The notes: generated by a model not told the origin, from the letters alone. A stretch of DNA of 64,000 nt from Succinivibrionaceae bacterium (GCA_051892875.1 JBJFGR010000026.1:7982-71981), one strand, 5' to 3'. Positions 14,801 to 18,225 are shown, counted from the stretch's first letter. Numbers and translations are program-made.

Positions 14801-14829
14801 TTGATAATTTTGACTAAATATGGTACAAT
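14801..14829 (+). promoter_or_regulatory. Predicted sigma70 promoter for the TIR-DHH cassette
   Basis: -35 TTGATA (14801-14806), 17-nt spacer, extended -10 TGgTACAAT (14821-14829). It would give a leader of about 150 nt before the ATG at 14987. Confidence 0.45.
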
Positions 14830-14986
14830 TAAACAATTATAGTTGTCTTGTTGAATCAATAAAGGTCGTAATTGTGATAATAAGACTAGCTGAGAACTCA
14901 GGGAAGAGTTTTATTAAATTTGGTGAATTAGTTGCAAGAAGCAAGTTTTATGGTAGCTATCTTACAGAAGATTGAGGTTATTCTAA

Positions 14987-16636
14987 ATGTCTTCAAAAAG
15001 TAAGCTATTTGATGTTTTTATATCTCATTCGTCTAGTGATGCTAGAGTCGCTAGGACTATTTGCGACTATTTAGAAAAACATCGAAACACTTGTTGGATT
15101 GCTCCACGTAATATTTATATTGGCACAGATTACGCTGAGCAGATAATCAAAGGTCTTGAATCCTCGAAGGTTTTATTGATTATCTTGTCTGAGATGGCAA
15201 ACAAATCAGAGCAGGTTTTACGCGAAGTAGAACGTGCTACAAGTAAGAAATTACCGATAATTGTATTTGCTATTGAACCTATTAAACAATTATCAAAATC
15301 ATTAGAGTATTTTTTAACTCATCGTCAATGGATTATGGGATGTACTGAAAGTGGTAAGTTGTGCATAACAAAGGACGTTTTATTTCAGTTATCTTGTGTT
15401 GTTGAAAAGTTTATTCACCAAGTTGATAGTGGAGAGGAAGATATAGGTTTAGAGTATGAACCTATGTCTAATTTTAACTATCAAAAGAGATCTAATTTAT
15501 ATTTTAGAATTGCTGTAATTTCTTTAAGTGTTATAGCATTTTGGTTGGGTGGTTTATTTTCAGACGATATCGCAAAATATTATTTTCCTAATGATGATTA
15601 TAAAAAAAATGTAAAAAATGATGATACTTTAAGTAATCAAAAATCTATCGCATCAACAAAATTAAAACCTGGTGATATTATTTCTTATGGATCTTATCGT
15701 GATAAACCAATATTATGGTCCGTAATGAATGCTAAGGCGGGAATTGTTAAATTAGTAGCTTATAAGCCAATATCATACAAACCTTTTGATGTTGCTCATA
15801 GTGGTTATTATGATAAGGTTTCAAAAGATGGTACACCTATTGGTAATCATGATGATGAAATGATTGCTAATTACTTGTTGAATTATATAAGAGACGATGA
15901 TGGAATTTCTTATGTAAAAGCTAGAGGAAGTTCTGATTGGAGAAGTTCTACATTAAGATCTTGGTTAAACAGCAGAAATATTAATGTTAAATATCATCAT
16001 GGAATACCGTCAATAAATAATATTAATGATTCTATTTTAAAAAGTTATAACAGTGAAGATTCAGCAAAGATAGCAGAACGTGGTTTTTTAAGCAACTTTA
16101 CTGAAAATGAATTTTTACATATGGTTGTGCAAAAGGGTGATTTTTTATTCTTGTTTAATACCATAAATTGTCAACTTTATGATGAACCTATTATGGATAA
16201 AAAGGTTTCAGATGTTTCCAAGTTTAAGAAACATGCTCTGTCATTTTTAATGAAAAATTTCACAGGGTGTTATAATTTAAAATATAATGAGTATGTGACA
16301 ATACCTGATATATCAGATTTAGATGATATAGTTAAGGTTCCCGAAGTATTAGTATCTTTTAATTATAAGTTTGATGTTAATATAGAACAAAAGAATTTAC
16401 CTTATACTACATCTTTTTGGTTAAAGAATGCTTGTGGTTATACACCTTCATCTGTGTGTTCTATTATAGGAAGTAAGGATAATCCTAAAGTTATAAAAGT
16501 CACTATTAAAGAAGTAACAAATCTAGATGGTGTATTACCTATCATAAATATTAATATACGCCGACTTCGTTTAATGGGTAATGGTGATTTATTATCTCCT
16601 TATAAAGTAATATGGGATAGTCAAGTTGCTGAATAG
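14987..16636 (+). CDS. TIR-domain protein: N-terminal TIR (TIR_2 type), one predicted TM helix, C-terminal extracytoplasmic DUF6273-like domain
   Basis: The TIR signature is DVFISHSSSDARVARTICDYLEKHRNTCWIAPRNI...SEQVLREVERA...LPIIVFAIE. The hydrophobic helix is YFRIAVISLSVIAFWLGGLF. The C-terminal region contains GDIISYGSY..PILWSV...SSDWRSSTLRSWLNS...GFLSNFTENE, which is typical of DUF6273-type domains. Confidence 0.8.
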   Translation: MSSKSKLFDVFISHSSSDARVARTICDYLEKHRNTCWIAPRNIYIGTDYAEQIIKGLESSKVLLIILSEMANKSEQVLREVERATSKKLPIIVFAIEPIKQLSKSLEYFLTHRQWIMGCTESGKLCITKDVLFQLSCVVEKFIHQVDSGEEDIGLEYEPMSNFNYQKRSNLYFRIAVISLSVIAFWLGGLFSDDIAKYYFPNDDYKKNVKNDDTLSNQKSIASTKLKPGDIISYGSYRDKPILWSVMNAKAGIVKLVAYKPISYKPFDVAHSGYYDKVSKDGTPIGNHDDEMIANYLLNYIRDDDGISYVKARGSSDWRSSTLRSWLNSRNINVKYHHGIPSINNINDSILKSYNSEDSAKIAERGFLSNFTENEFLHMVVQKGDFLFLFNTINCQLYDEPIMDKKVSDVSKFKKHALSFLMKNFTGCYNLKYNEYVTIPDISDLDDIVKVPEVLVSFNYKFDVNIEQKNLPYTTSFWLKNACGYTPSSVCSIIGSKDNPKVIKVTIKEVTNLDGVLPIININIRRLRLMGNGDLLSPYKVIWDSQVAE

Positions 16637-16679
16637 TGTTATTGTGTATAAAAATATATCATAAATATAGGAAGGTTAT

Positions 16680-18212
16680 ATGATAGATTTAAATATTATA
16701 GCTTCTGAGAATGATGAAATTACTATTCAGTGTCACGATAATCCTGATGCAGATGCTATTGGTTCAGGTTTTGCTCTATATAGATTTTTTGTAAAAAAAG
16801 GAATAAAGACAAGCTTAATTTACTCTGGAAAAAATAAGATAGGCAAAGTTAATCTAAAAAAAATGGTTGAGCTATTGCATATCCCTATAGAGTTTGTAAA
16901 GCCAAATATTGATGTAGACGGATTATTGATTACAGTTGATTGTCAATACGGATGTTCAAATGTAACCAATATCAATTGTAAAAAGTGTTTAGTTATTGAT
17001 CATCACATACCAGATCCTTATAGAAAACCTAATAATGGTGAATGTATAAGAAGTCTTTATGGCAGTTGTTCAACTGTTATTTATCATTTGTTAGTACGTA
17101 GTAATTACCTTATAAAAGATGATTTAGAAGCATCTACTGGATTGTATTATGGGTTGTATATGGATACTGGTGAGTTTTCTGAAATAACCAATATGGCTGA
17201 TAAGGATGCTAGAGATGAATTGCATTTTAATTTGCAAATAATAACAATTCTTCAAAATTCTAATTTAACATTTTCAGATTTTTCAATTGCAGGTCAGGCT
17301 TTATCTAATTATCATTATTTTCCAGATAGAAGAATTGCTACAATTCAGACACAACCTTGTGACGTAAATATTTTAGGATTTATTTCTGATTTATTATTGA
17401 GAGTGGATGGGGTAGATGTCGGAATTGTATACACTGATTTGGGAGATATCACTAAACTTTCAATAAGAAGTTGTTCTAATGAGATAAAAGCTAACGAGTT
17501 AGCACAATATATAACTTTAAATATTGGAGGAGGCGGTGGCCATATTCGCAAAAGTGGTGGGTATATTAGTAATTTGATGTATAAAGAGCAGTTTGCTAGT
17601 ATGTGCAAATCAAAGGATGAATATATTTATAAAAAATTTTGTAGTTTTTATGATAGTTTTGATTATGTTTATACAGATAAATATAAGGTTGATGTATCAG
17701 AATTTAAATTATTCACTAAATGCGAATTGGTGTTAGGTTGGATTCCAAGTACTACTATTGCACCATTAGGAACGCAGATAATTTTAAGAACTCAAGAAGG
17801 GGATGTTTCAGAGAGAGTGTCTGATAATTTGATAATAATGGTAGGTATATTAGGAGAAGTTTATCCCATTAAAAGAACATCGTTTGAAAAAAAATACAAA
17901 GTTGTAGATGAACCTTTTGACATTGATTTTGAATATTCTCCAAGAATTAGAGTTTTAGATTACGATGATGTTGTATTTCTAGAAGGTTTAATAAAACCTT
18001 GTAAAGTACTTCCAGCTAATAATGTTTATGCTAAAAAATTATCTAAAGAAACAAAAATATTTTCAGAATGGAATTATGAAAACTATATGACAGGTAGAAT
18101 TGGTGATTATATTGTCTGTTATCAAAAAGAAAATGGAGAACCAAATTCTTCTGATTTATATATTGTTAATGGAAATATTTTTAATAGATTATATACAAAA
18201 GTAAGACCATAA
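16680..18212 (+). CDS. DHH/DHHA1-family phosphoesterase (NrnA-like core) with a C-terminal extension of about 190 aa of unknown function
   Basis: DHH motifs are HDNPDADAIGS, TVDCQ and VIDHH. The DHHA1 motif is IGGGGGHIRKSGG. An AGGAAGG RBS lies 43 nt after the TIR stop. The C-terminal about 190 aa are not assignable. Confidence 0.8.
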   Translation: MIDLNIIASENDEITIQCHDNPDADAIGSGFALYRFFVKKGIKTSLIYSGKNKIGKVNLKKMVELLHIPIEFVKPNIDVDGLLITVDCQYGCSNVTNINCKKCLVIDHHIPDPYRKPNNGECIRSLYGSCSTVIYHLLVRSNYLIKDDLEASTGLYYGLYMDTGEFSEITNMADKDARDELHFNLQIITILQNSNLTFSDFSIAGQALSNYHYFPDRRIATIQTQPCDVNILGFISDLLLRVDGVDVGIVYTDLGDITKLSIRSCSNEIKANELAQYITLNIGGGGGHIRKSGGYISNLMYKEQFASMCKSKDEYIYKKFCSFYDSFDYVYTDKYKVDVSEFKLFTKCELVLGWIPSTTIAPLGTQIILRTQEGDVSERVSDNLIIMVGILGEVYPIKRTSFEKKYKVVDEPFDIDFEYSPRIRVLDYDDVVFLEGLIKPCKVLPANNVYAKKLSKETKIFSEWNYENYMTGRIGDYIVCYQKENGEPNSSDLYIVNGNIFNRLYTKVRP

Positions 18213-18225
18213 TATATGGTCTTAC
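18201..18225. terminator. Shared hairpin between convergent DHH gene and suhB
   Basis: 10-bp stem GTAAGACCAT / ATGGTCTTAC with a 5-nt loop, overlapping the DHH stop codon. A U-run (TTTTG) follows it on the minus strand, so it fits best as the suhB terminator. Confidence 0.5.

What the first reader, a model, noticed from the sequence alone, without database searches (positions are those of the whole stretch)
14801..18225. Two-gene TIR plus DHH/DHHA1 cassette inserted between core genes ybjD-like and suhB: candidate uncharacterised TIR signalling or defence module
Seen in the sequence:
- The two ORFs are co-directional and 43 nt apart. The second has an AGGAAGG RBS, and no hairpin lies between them.
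- A near-consensus extended -10 promoter lies at 14801-14829.
- A hairpin shared with convergent suhB closes the unit.
- Both flanking genes are conserved chromosomal genes.

Established knowledge:
- Bacterial TIR domains are NAD+-cleaving enzymes. They either deplete NAD+ or generate ADPR-derived second messengers, as in Thoeris.
- DHH/DHHA1 enzymes (NrnA, GdpP/Pde2, RecJ) hydrolyse phosphoester bonds in nanoRNAs, pAp, cyclic or linear dinucleotides, or ssDNA.

Inference:
- I do not know a described system that pairs a membrane-anchored TIR with a DHH phosphoesterase. Known Thoeris effectors are SIR2/SLOG, Macro or TM types.
- The DHH enzyme could be a signal-activated effector, sensing through its unassigned C-terminal modules, or a signal-clearing enzyme.

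Mundane alternative: the DHH gene is simply a housekeeping NrnA-like nanoRNase and the adjacency is fortuitous.
Basis: partly seen in the sequence, partly recalled or inferred. Interest (0 to 1): 0.8.

Follow-up and report, generated by a model that had tools for sequence, protein, structure and literature searches.

The report
Membrane TIR receptor with DHH partner
A membrane-spanning TIR "receptor" gene and a DHH phosphodiesterase gene carrying a previously undescribed C-terminal domain form a conserved two-gene unit, found in hundreds of gut bacterial species and inserted here by horizontal transfer, which looks like an undescribed TIR signalling pathway rather than a chance neighbourhood.

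Summary
Window 14987-16636 encodes a TIR / single TM helix / DUF6273-like (C-type-lectin-like) protein. Window 16680-18212 encodes an intact DHH-DHHA1 phosphodiesterase with a 190-aa all-beta C-terminal module.

**The adjacency is not fortuitous.**
- Of 80 species-representative genomes carrying this ~500-aa DHH family, 43 have a TIR-TM gene touching it, in two architectures and both gene orders.
- 13 of 24 informative TIR-DUF6273 loci carry the DHH gene.
- One TIR+DHH+module fusion protein exists.
- A related Succinivibrionaceae contig has ybjD directly next to suhB, an empty site.

**The C-terminal module is the constant element.**
- It has no match among PDB structures and only a weak PGDYG-like Pfam signal.
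- It also ends class III cyclases and precedes a GGDEF domain, and those genes again sit next to TIR genes.

**Reading.** Most likely this is a TIR signalling pair. An extracytoplasmic sensor activates the TIR, the module-bearing enzyme receives the output, and the DHH domain acts on small nucleotides. An off-switch role for the DHH enzyme is the main rival. The surrounding genes do not suggest phage defence. No biochemistry was tested. I rate it a new variant of TIR signalling systems, with high interest.

The parts
14801..14829 (+). Promoter-like site TTGATA-17-TACAAT with an upstream TG (extended -10 type), about 155 nt before the TIR start codon
   Evidence: 10 of 12 positions match. Such matches are frequent in this AT-rich DNA (35 found, 25.9 expected), so the site is suggestive only. 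The leader has no Rfam match.
14987..16636 (+). Gene for the TIR / TM / DUF6273-like receptor-type protein (549 aa)
   Evidence: Its closest relatives (46%, 40%, 34% identity) share the whole architecture.
15008..15361 (+). Cytoplasmic TIR domain (about aa 8-125). The catalytic glutamate E80 is the codon GAA at 15224-15226.
   Evidence: Pfam TIR_2, E = 1.8e-16. E80 is invariant in 47 homologues. It is the only invariant column across 10 TIR domains from all partner classes. It aligns with the WDE glutamate of Cat1, PDB 9mud.
15503..15559 (+). Single transmembrane helix (about aa 173-191). K167, R168 and R174 lie on the N-terminal side, and D193 and D194 follow the helix.
   Evidence: the maximum Kyte-Doolittle 19-residue mean is 1.97, at residue 173. 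No other hydrophobic segment is present.
15659..16633 (+). Extracytoplasmic C-terminal domain. It is a divergent relative of DUF6273, a C-type-lectin-like fold.
   Evidence: The Pfam DUF6273 hit is weak here (E = 0.0088). A profile of the same region from homologues that carry DUF6273 matches at 2.6e-67. The fold assignment for DUF6273 comes from PMC10743442.
16669..16675 (+). Shine-Dalgarno sequence AGGAAGG for the DHH gene, inside the 43-nt spacer
   Evidence: read directly from the sequence.
16680..17630 (+). DHH-DHHA1 phosphodiesterase core (aa 1-317) with intact catalytic motifs
   Evidence: The AlphaFold2 model has pLDDT 93.5. The best fold matches are TM1595, the GdpP catalytic domain, Rv2837c, NrnA and DhhP, with E = 1e-18 to 1e-14.
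17631..18212 (+). C-terminal all-beta two-lobed module (aa 318-510, then the stop codon). It is a PGDYG-like, TIR-associated module.
   Evidence: The AlphaFold2 model has pLDDT 91. No PDB fold match (best E = 0.18) and no PDB sequence match. A weak Pfam PGDYG hit occurs in 8 of 23 members. The module recurs on cyclases, a GGDEF protein and a TIR fusion.
18201..18225 (.). Hairpin with an 11-bp stem, overlapping the DHH stop codon and facing convergent suhB. It is probably a bidirectional terminator.
   Evidence: It is reported on both strands, and the T-run is better on the minus strand.

Best explanation
This is a two-gene TIR signalling module, acquired horizontally (most probably from gut Clostridia) and inserted between ybjD and suhB.

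**Gene 1** is a receptor-type protein with three parts:
- a cytoplasmic, catalytically competent TIR domain;
- one TM helix;
- an extracytoplasmic C-type-lectin-like (DUF6273-related) domain.

**Gene 2** is its cytoplasmic partner. It is an active NrnA/GdpP-type DHH-DHHA1 phosphodiesterase fused to a ~190-aa two-lobed beta module that has not been described before.

**Proposed mechanism (inferred).**
1. A ligand binds outside the membrane.
2. Binding drives TIR-TIR assembly and switches on the NAD+-consuming activity of the TIR.
3. The nucleotide product, or the assembled TIR itself, is received by the C-terminal module of the partner.
4. The module controls the DHH phosphodiesterase, which acts on small nucleotides: linear or cyclic dinucleotides such as pApA, pGpG or c-di-NMP, or the TIR product itself.

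The module, not the DHH domain, is the constant element of the pathway. In other bacteria the same module is attached to class III cyclases or to a GGDEF domain that also sit next to TIR genes. The pathway therefore appears to feed TIR signalling into classical second-messenger metabolism.

**Shown:** domains, catalytic residues, topology, conserved linkage, the fusion protein, the empty site, and the module's other contexts.
**Inferred:** every biochemical step.
For: **1. Linkage seen from the DHH side.**
- 43 of 80 species-representative loci have a TIR gene adjacent.
- 34 are TIR-TM-WD40/beta-propeller genes. 28 of these lie immediately downstream and co-directional, often overlapping the DHH gene.
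- 9 are TIR-TM-DUF6273 genes immediately upstream, as in the window.
- TIR-linked DHH genes are spread over many DHH clades.

**2. Linkage seen from the TIR side.**
- 13 of 24 informative TIR-DUF6273 loci have the DHH gene.
- L176 is a further case.

**3. Transfer across phyla as a pair.**
- Succinivibrionaceae loci L002-L006 and the window keep TIR-DHH together.
- L168 is the empty site.

**4. Fusion protein.** P0473 combines TIR_2, DHH and the module in one protein.

**5. The module travels with TIR independently of DHH.**
- In L171 and L172, a TIR gene overlaps or lies 16 nt upstream of a cyclase+module gene.
- In L174, a 932-aa TIR protein is divergently adjacent to a protein made of a degenerate DHH domain, the module and GGDEF.

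**6. Catalytic competence.**
- TIR E80 is invariant.
- The DHH and DHHA1 motifs are intact.

**7. Fold of the DHH core.** It resembles dinucleotide/nanoRNA phosphodiesterases.

**8. The module is a confident, conserved fold.** pLDDT is 91, and many polar and aromatic columns are invariant.
Against: - No biochemical or genetic data exist for any member.
- 37 of 80 DHH loci have no TIR gene within 8 kb. Eight of those have a GGDEF-EAL gene directly upstream instead. The DHH enzyme therefore need not depend on a neighbouring TIR. Its partner could lie elsewhere in the genome, which was not testable.
- About half of the TIR-DUF6273 genes lack an adjacent DHH gene.
- Known TIR products (ADPR, cADPR isomers) contain pyrophosphate and glycosidic bonds, not the 3'-5' phosphodiester bonds that NrnA-type enzymes cut.
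- The sample of cyclase and GGDEF module loci is small: 3 clear, 1 probable, 1 uninformative.
- The degenerate-DHH protein P0404 suggests that the DHH core itself, rather than the module, could be the ligand-binding part.
- Part of the adjacency within Lachnospiraceae reflects shared ancestry rather than independent events.
Confidence: 0.55

Rival explanations
1. Off-switch or detoxifying enzyme. The DHH protein specifically hydrolyses the nucleotide made by the TIR, or a toxic by-product. This resets the signal, in the way NrN degrades SAM-AMP beside CorA and ring nucleases degrade cyclic oligoadenylates. In this reading the C-terminal module only supplies substrate specificity or docking.
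For: - The DHH core is catalytically intact and resembles small-nucleotide phosphodiesterases.
- There is a precedent for a DHH phosphodiesterase obligately paired with a membrane signalling protein, and sometimes fused to it (PMC10600005).
- The best PDB sequence match is the B. fragilis Nrn.
- Eight loci pair this DHH gene with a GGDEF-EAL gene, whose EAL domain would make pGpG. That fits a 'finishing' phosphodiesterase.
- Tight translational coupling with the TIR gene.
Against: - The same module sits on signal-making enzymes (class III cyclases, GGDEF) next to TIR genes that have no DHH domain at all. A degradative enzyme is therefore not the constant partner of these TIRs.
- One TIR-linked relative has lost the DHH motif yet keeps the module.
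- Known TIR products lack 3'-5' phosphodiester bonds.
Confidence: 0.25
2. Thoeris-like anti-phage (abortive infection) system. The TIR senses infection and makes a signal that activates the DHH protein as a nuclease effector. The effector degrades nucleic acids or essential nucleotides to stop the phage.
For: - The TIR domain gives weak hits to ThsB models and to the PADLOC candidate PDC-S66.
- The two-gene layout of a TIR plus a protein with an unassigned domain resembles Thoeris.
- The cassette is accessory and horizontally transferred in Succinivibrionaceae.
- Uncharacterised viral proteins share the module fold, including stand-alone proteins of 163-180 aa. These could be sponges.
Against: - PADLOC gives no hit for the DHH protein, and all defence-family scores are far below their cut-offs.
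- The neighbourhoods are housekeeping genes (purH-like, glnS, suhB, P-type ATPase, GGDEF-EAL), not defence islands.
- The sensor domains are extracytoplasmic, which is unusual for sensing infection.
- The other outputs are cyclase and GGDEF domains, which are regulatory enzymes rather than killing domains.
- The family looks long-resident and largely vertically inherited in Lachnospiraceae.
- The neighbouring OLD-family gene is a vertically conserved ybjD. It is never found near the pair in Firmicutes.
Confidence: 0.12
3. Fortuitous adjacency. The DHH gene is a housekeeping NrnA-like nanoRNase / pAp phosphatase and the TIR gene is unrelated to it.
For: - One public source names the protein NrnA.
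- The DHH core resembles NrnA.
- Many family members lack an adjacent TIR gene.
Against: - The pairing recurs in two architectures, both gene orders and two phyla, and there is a fusion protein.
- The protein scores 33 bits against the NrnA equivalog cut-off of 350.
- It carries an extra conserved 190-aa module.
- It is absent from the empty-site relative.
Confidence: 0.03

Closest known systems
Thoeris (ThsB TIR sensor plus ThsA effector with a SLOG or Macro signal-binding domain)
   Same: - A TIR protein with the catalytic glutamate is paired, in an operon, with a second protein.
- That second protein combines an enzymatic domain with a separate, conserved, non-catalytic domain that could receive the TIR product.
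   Different: - The partner has no SIR2, SLOG, Macro or TM effector. It is a DHH-DHHA1 phosphodiesterase with a new module.
- The TIR protein is a single-pass membrane protein with an extracytoplasmic lectin-like or propeller domain.
- The genomic context is housekeeping, not defence islands.
- All ThsB-family scores are at or below their cut-offs.
CorA-NrN module of type III-B CRISPR (SAM-AMP signalling; PMC10600005)
   Same: - A stand-alone DHH-DHHA1 phosphodiesterase is obligately linked, and sometimes fused, to a membrane signalling protein.
- The B. fragilis Nrn is the best PDB sequence match to the DHH core.
   Different: - No cas10 or CorA gene is present here.
- The membrane partner is a TIR receptor-type protein.
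- NrN lacks the C-terminal module.
NrnA / Pde2 / Rv2837c (CnpB) / TM1595 / GdpP catalytic domain (stand-alone DHH-DHHA1 phosphodiesterases for pApA, pGpG, nanoRNA, pAp, c-di-AMP)
   Same: - The fold and all catalytic motifs of the first 317 residues match (Foldseek E = 1e-18 to 1e-14).
- The GGGH and K-x-S-x-R-S motifs of DHHA1 are present.
   Different: - Identity is only 16-21%.
- The protein has an extra 190-aa module.
- It is linked to TIR genes.
- It is not the NrnA equivalog (33 bits against a cut-off of 350).
Animal Toll-like / IL-1 receptors (by topology only)
   Same: The layout is an extracellular ligand-binding domain, a single TM helix and a cytoplasmic TIR domain.
   Different: - The orientation is reversed: the TIR is N-terminal here.
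- The ectodomains are unrelated.
- The bacterial TIR keeps the NADase glutamate and probably signals enzymatically.
- No homology outside the TIR domain is implied.
PGDYG proteins (Pfam PF14083) and uncharacterised viral proteins in BFVD
   Same: - The second lobe of the module carries the G-D-Y motif and gives weak PGDYG hits in 8 of 23 members.
- Some relatives carry an additional bona fide PGDYG domain.
- Five viral proteins match the whole module (E = 6e-9 to 2e-4).
   Different: - PGDYG is a single ~100-aa domain of unknown function.
- The window protein itself does not reach any Pfam threshold.
- No function is known for any of these proteins, and no paper mentions PGDYG.

Membership tests
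Thoeris | A TIR-domain ThsB protein with the catalytic glutamate | tested here: inconclusive
   - The TIR domain and E80 are present.
- The ThsB_TIR Pfam score is 21.0 against a cut-off of 21.2.
- PADLOC ThsB hits cover only part of the models, at E = 2e-8 or weaker.
- NCBIfam Thoeris type III ThcB4 scores 20.9 against a cut-off of 220.
Thoeris | A ThsA-type effector: a SLOG or Macro signal-binding domain joined to a SIR2 or TM killing domain | tested here: not met
   The partner has only DHH and DHHA1 in Pfam. It has no PADLOC hit.
Thoeris | Anti-phage activity through a TIR-made cADPR-type signal | not testable with these tools
   This needs phage challenge and LC-MS.
NrnA (bifunctional oligoribonuclease / pAp phosphatase) | DHH and DHHA1 domains with the catalytic DHH and GGGH motifs | tested here: met
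NrnA (bifunctional oligoribonuclease / pAp phosphatase) | Equivalog-level sequence similarity and the two-domain ~310-340 aa architecture | tested here: not met
   - NCBIfam NF053633 scores 33.1 bits against a cut-off of 350.
- The protein is 510 aa, with a conserved extra module.
NrnA (bifunctional oligoribonuclease / pAp phosphatase) | Housekeeping distribution, independent of particular neighbours | tested here: not met
   - The gene is absent at the empty site in a related Succinivibrionaceae contig.
- 54% of family loci have a TIR gene adjacent.
GdpP-type c-di-AMP phosphodiesterase | TM, PAS and degenerate GGDEF domains N-terminal to DHH-DHHA1 | tested here: not met
   The DHH domain starts at residue 14. 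There is no TM helix and no PAS or GGDEF domain.
RecJ | A DHH-DHHA1 core with an OB-fold and a ssDNA exonuclease architecture (more than 550 aa) | tested here: not met
   - The best fold matches are short phosphodiesterases. RecJ-type entries rank lower.
- The C-terminal module matches no OB-fold structure.
CorA-NrN CRISPR accessory module | Association with type III cas10 loci and a CorA membrane effector | tested here: not met
   No cas or CorA gene lies among the genes flanking the pair, either here or in the related loci.
DUF6273 (PF19789) | A match to the Pfam model above the gathering score | tested here: inconclusive
   - The window protein scores 16.4 bits against a cut-off of 23.5.
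- It aligns along its full length with homologues that do carry DUF6273.
- It matches their profile at 2.6e-67.
PGDYG (PF14083) | A match to the Pfam model above the gathering score | tested here: not met
   - The window module has no hit.
- 8 of 23 family members hit weakly, best E = 0.0016.
- Structural matches to phage PGDYG proteins are local only, 45-61 columns.

The most novel reading that the evidence does not exclude
The C-terminal two-lobed beta module is a previously unrecognised receptor domain for a TIR-made nucleotide, or for the activated TIR itself.

It would define a non-immune, transmembrane TIR signalling pathway in gut bacteria:
- Receptor-type TIR proteins with lectin-like or beta-propeller ectodomains sense extracytoplasmic cues.
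- Through this module they control classical second-messenger enzymes: the DHH phosphodiesterase, class III cyclases and GGDEF proteins.
- Stand-alone viral copies of the module would then be candidate signal sponges.
Probability: 0.3. Interest if true: 0.9.

Novelty: new variant of a known kind. Interest (0 to 1): 0.78.

Why it matters
**What is new compared with known systems.**
- Bacterial TIR domains are known almost only from phage-defence systems, where a cytoplasmic TIR makes a signal for a killing effector.
- Here a TIR sits on a single-pass membrane protein with an outward-facing ligand-binding domain.
- Its conserved partner is a phosphodiesterase carrying an undescribed domain. That domain also decorates cyclases and diguanylate cyclases that sit next to TIR genes.

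**What it would mean if the inferred coupling is real.**
- TIR chemistry would be used for ordinary transmembrane signal transduction.
- TIR signalling would be wired into cAMP/cGMP, c-di-GMP and possibly c-di-AMP metabolism.
- This would hold in at least about 590 species of gut Clostridia, and, by horizontal transfer, in rumen and gut Succinivibrionaceae.

**What it offers experimentally.**
- A compact, testable pair of two soluble domains.
- A way to discover a new TIR product and its receptor fold.
- A lead on whether phage proteins with the same fold intercept that signal.

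Tried and rejected
1. **OLD/ybjD as a third component: rejected.**
   - It is vertically conserved across Aeromonadales, with or without the pair.
   - It is never found near the pair in Firmicute loci.
2. **A riboswitch in the 155-nt leader:** no Rfam match.
3. **Recent transfer detectable by composition:** GC content equals that of the flanks.
4. **Diversity-generating retroelement targeting of the DUF6273-like domain** (suggested by PMC10743442): no template/variable repeat pairs were found near any TIR-DUF6273 gene.
5. **A known fold for the C-terminal module.**
   - No PDB fold match.
   - No PDB sequence match.
   - Pfam gave only weak PGDYG hits, and PHROGs only a weak hit of unknown function.
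6. **Internal duplication of the two lobes.** hhalign finds only an 18-residue shared terminal motif, with probability 28%. The duplication is not established.
7. **Phage origin.** Only 4 metagenomic 'Bacteriophage sp.' contigs match. One of them again carries the TIR-DHH pair.
8. **Literature.** Searches for TIR with DHH, Thoeris with DHH, PGDYG, and TIR with Lachnospiraceae found no description of this pairing.
9. **A distance tree with Biopython** timed out. It was replaced by average-linkage clustering.

Full report
**What is in the window**

The window comes from a Succinivibrionaceae metagenome-assembled genome, according to the names public sources give to the identical proteins.

Two co-directional ORFs lie at 14987-16636 (549 aa) and 16680-18212 (510 aa), separated by 43 nt. 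An AGGAAGG ribosome-binding site lies 4 nt before the second ATG. The consensus scan finds no terminator-like hairpin in the spacer.

The scan also finds a TTGATA-17-TACAAT site with an upstream TG at 14801-14829, and an 11-bp-stem hairpin at 18201-18225. The hairpin overlaps the DHH stop codon and faces the convergent suhB gene. The promoter match is weak evidence on its own, because such matches are frequent in this 30% GC DNA (35 found, 25.9 expected). GC content is the same as in the flanks. The leader has no Rfam match.

**Protein 1**

- It has a TIR_2 domain (E = 1.8e-16).
- It has one hydrophobic helix at about aa 173-191, with positive charges on the N-terminal side.
- Its ~325-aa C-terminal domain gives only a weak DUF6273 hit by itself. 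It aligns end to end with homologues that do carry DUF6273 and matches their profile at 2.6e-67.
- DUF6273 has been modelled as a C-type-lectin-like ligand-binding fold in phage receptor-binding proteins (PMC10743442).
- The TIR catalytic glutamate is E80 (codon 15224-15226). It is invariant in 47 homologues. It aligns with the WDE glutamate of the CRISPR-associated TIR protein Cat1, PDB 9mud. It is the only invariant column across ten TIR domains drawn from all the partner classes described below.
- The inferred topology is cytoplasmic TIR, one TM helix, extracytoplasmic sensor.

**Protein 2**

- It has DHH and DHHA1 domains with every catalytic motif conserved: D23/D25, D87, D107-H108-H109, D162, G285-G286-G287-H288.
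- An AlphaFold2 model is confident (pLDDT 93.5, pTM 0.86).
- Residues 1-317 superpose on stand-alone dinucleotide/nanoRNA phosphodiesterases: TM1595, the GdpP catalytic domain, Rv2837c, NrnA/Pde2 and DhhP (Foldseek E = 1e-18 to 1e-14).
- It is not NrnA. It scores 33 bits against the NCBIfam equivalog cut-off of 350.
- Residues 318-510 form a separate all-beta, two-lobed module. Modelled alone, it has pLDDT 91.
- The module has no fold match in the PDB (best E = 0.18) and no PDB sequence match.
- Its only Pfam signal is a weak PGDYG (PF14083) hit in 8 of 23 family members.
- Many polar and aromatic columns of the module are invariant across 118 sequences.

**Is the adjacency meaningful?**

The DHH-plus-module protein belongs to a large family. 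More than 3,500 full-length homologues at 40-45% identity were found, mostly from Lachnospiraceae and other Clostridia. At least 593 species-representative genomes carry it.

I fetched the best 80 genome loci and classified the neighbouring genes with profiles built here.

| Neighbour of the DHH gene | Loci (of 80) | Position |
|---|---|---|
| TIR-TM-WD40/beta-propeller protein (800-1100 aa) | 34 | 28 immediately downstream and co-directional, often overlapping; 3 upstream; 3 convergent |
| TIR-TM-DUF6273 protein | 9 | immediately upstream, as in the window |
| GGDEF-EAL gene | 8 | directly upstream |
| purH-like or glnS synteny, or no recurrent neighbour | 29 | various |

In total, 43 of the 80 loci have a TIR gene adjacent. 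TIR-linked members are spread over many DHH clades.

In the reverse direction, I scanned metagenomes with the TIR alignment.
- 13 of 24 informative TIR-DUF6273 loci have the DHH gene adjacent.
- None of the 48 loci whose TIR protein has the same TIR subtype but a different C-terminus has it.
- One further pair lies on a faecal contig filed as 'Bacteriophage sp.'.

**The cassette was inserted**

- Three diverged Succinivibrionaceae lineages share the order ybjD-TIR-DHH. Their DHH proteins are 50-61% identical to the window's.
- A related contig, L168, has ybjD directly next to suhB, followed by the same UPF0149, phosphoglucomutase and phosphorylase genes. That is the empty site.
- The ybjD-like OLD-family gene is vertically conserved throughout Aeromonadales. 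It never accompanies the pair in Firmicutes, so it is a flank and not a component.

**The module is the constant element**

A profile of the module alone, searched against 1.84 billion representative proteins, found 907 proteins. The best 150 break down as follows:

| Architecture | Count (of 149 classified) |
|---|---|
| DHH + module | 83 |
| Class III adenylate/guanylate cyclase + module | 8 |
| TIR_2 + DHH + module fusion (P0473) | 1 |
| ~300-345 aa proteins matching the linker plus module of the cyclase type | 23 |
| Module-only hits, mostly apparent fragments | 34 |

Some relatives carry an extra bona fide PGDYG domain. One (P0404) has a DHH-like core that has lost the DHH motif, followed by the module and a GGDEF domain.

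I could inspect five non-DHH loci.
- In L171 and L172, a 287-302-aa TIR protein lies immediately upstream of the cyclase+module gene (overlapping in one, 16 nt away in the other). Each is preceded by a GAF-GGDEF gene.
- In L173, the truncated upstream ORF has the same zinc-ribbon tail as the L171 TIR protein. Its N-terminus runs off the contig.
- In L174, a 932-aa TIR protein is divergently adjacent to the module-GGDEF protein.
- L175 is too short to judge.

So TIR genes accompany the module whatever enzyme the module is attached to.

**Mechanism**

The layout is shown: an outward-facing sensor, a catalytically competent cytoplasmic TIR, and a cytoplasmic partner with an active small-nucleotide phosphodiesterase and a conserved extra domain.

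The following steps are inferred.
1. Ligand-driven TIR assembly activates NAD+ consumption.
2. The product, or the assembled TIR, is received by the module.
3. The attached enzyme changes its activity.

The other outputs are cyclase and GGDEF domains. The DHH core resembles enzymes acting on pApA, pGpG and c-di-AMP. The pathway therefore seems to feed into classical second-messenger pools. I put about 0.55 on this general scheme and about 0.85 on the narrower claim that the two genes work together.

**Rivals**

- **Off-switch (0.25).** The DHH enzyme would be a dedicated off-switch for the TIR product, as NrN is for SAM-AMP beside CorA (PMC10600005).
  - For: the intact active site and the pairing with GGDEF-EAL genes.
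  - Against: the existence of TIR plus cyclase-module pairs that contain no DHH domain.
- **Thoeris-like abortive-infection system (0.12).** This is possible but poorly supported.
  - The DHH protein has no PADLOC hit.
  - Defence-family scores are far below their cut-offs.
  - The neighbourhoods are housekeeping genes, the sensors are extracytoplasmic, and the outputs are regulatory.
- **Fortuitous adjacency (0.03).** This is effectively excluded.

**Comparison with known systems, and novelty**

- By logic, the closest known system is Thoeris: a TIR protein plus a partner that has a separate non-catalytic domain. The defining ThsA-type effector is absent, so this is not a member.
- By enzyme, the closest relatives are the NrnA / GdpP / TM1595 phosphodiesterases and the CorA-NrN pair. 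The defining contexts or architectures of those are not met.
- Full-text searches found no description of a TIR-DHH pairing or of the module.
- I classify it as a new variant of TIR signalling systems.
- If the module proves to be a TIR-signal receptor that controls second-messenger enzymes, it would be a new pathway class.

**Limits**

- All functional statements are inferences from sequence, predicted structure and gene neighbourhood.
- Part of the co-occurrence within Lachnospiraceae reflects shared ancestry.
- Loci without an adjacent TIR gene could not be checked genome-wide.
- The census of non-DHH module contexts is small.

Noticed in passing
L171:4053-8424 and L172:2-3884: A recurring three-gene cluster: a GAF-GGDEF gene, then a TIR_2 protein of 287-302 aa with a zinc-ribbon or HTH-like tail, then a class III cyclase ending in the same C-terminal module as the window's DHH protein. 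This looks like a sister system with a cyclase output.
   Followed up: partly
L174:1967-7070: A 932-aa TIR_2 protein lies divergently adjacent to P0404. In P0404 the DHH motif is lost (the sequence reads 'IDRR' in place of 'IDHH'), but the module is kept and a GGDEF domain is added. It may be a pseudo-enzyme sensor.
   Followed up: partly
L170:247-2436 (P0473): A single protein fuses TIR_2, DHH-DHHA1 and the module, with no TM helix. Its DHHA1 GGGH motif reads GGAM. Only one representative of this fusion was seen.
   Followed up: partly
L009:9479-14934 and L049 (same layout): In two Epulonipiscium-like MAGs, the DHH gene is followed by a 163-aa ORF. Two convergent TIR genes come next: a TIR-WD40 protein (992 aa) and a TIR protein with a trypsin-like peptidase domain (606 aa).
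   Followed up: no
L003:7647-8480 (also L004-L006): In one Succinivibrionaceae lineage, a Dam-like (MethyltransfD12) methyltransferase gene sits between the DHH gene and suhB. It is absent from the window. It may be a second insertion at the same site.
   Followed up: no
BFVD entries A0A7D0KZ20, A0A345MMK3, A0A2I2L347, A0A6J5R0H2, A0A6J5T1L1: Uncharacterised viral proteins match the whole two-lobed module (E = 6e-9 to 2e-4, TMq 0.42-0.55). Two of them are stand-alone proteins of 163-180 aa. Phage 'PGDYG proteins' match one lobe locally. Their role is unknown, and they could be signal sponges.
   Followed up: no
window:10770-12809 (-): A LonB-like protease (AAA_32 plus Lon_C) lies divergent from ybjD. 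The lon-ybjD pairing is conserved in Ruminobacter contigs L167 and L169. In those contigs ybjD is followed by a glutamine-dependent NAD synthetase gene instead of suhB.
   Followed up: partly
window:19151-22372 (-): A 595-aa protein with one TM helix has no Pfam or NCBIfam match. It lies immediately downstream of a 473-aa multi-pass membrane protein that resembles AlgI/DltB-type MBOAT acyltransferases by eye. I did not run the 473-aa protein against a domain library.
   Followed up: no
window:15439-15469 (+): A 13-bp-stem hairpin lies inside the TIR gene, at the linker between the TIR domain and the TM helix. It is followed by an A/T-rich run. It is probably incidental.
   Followed up: no
L019, L023, L026, L056, L059, L068, L072, L081: In eight Lachnospiraceae species, the DHH-module gene is directly preceded (from a 4-nt overlap to a 44-nt gap) by a GGDEF-EAL gene instead of a TIR gene. 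This hints that the enzyme may act on pGpG or otherwise be tied to c-di-GMP turnover.
   Followed up: partly
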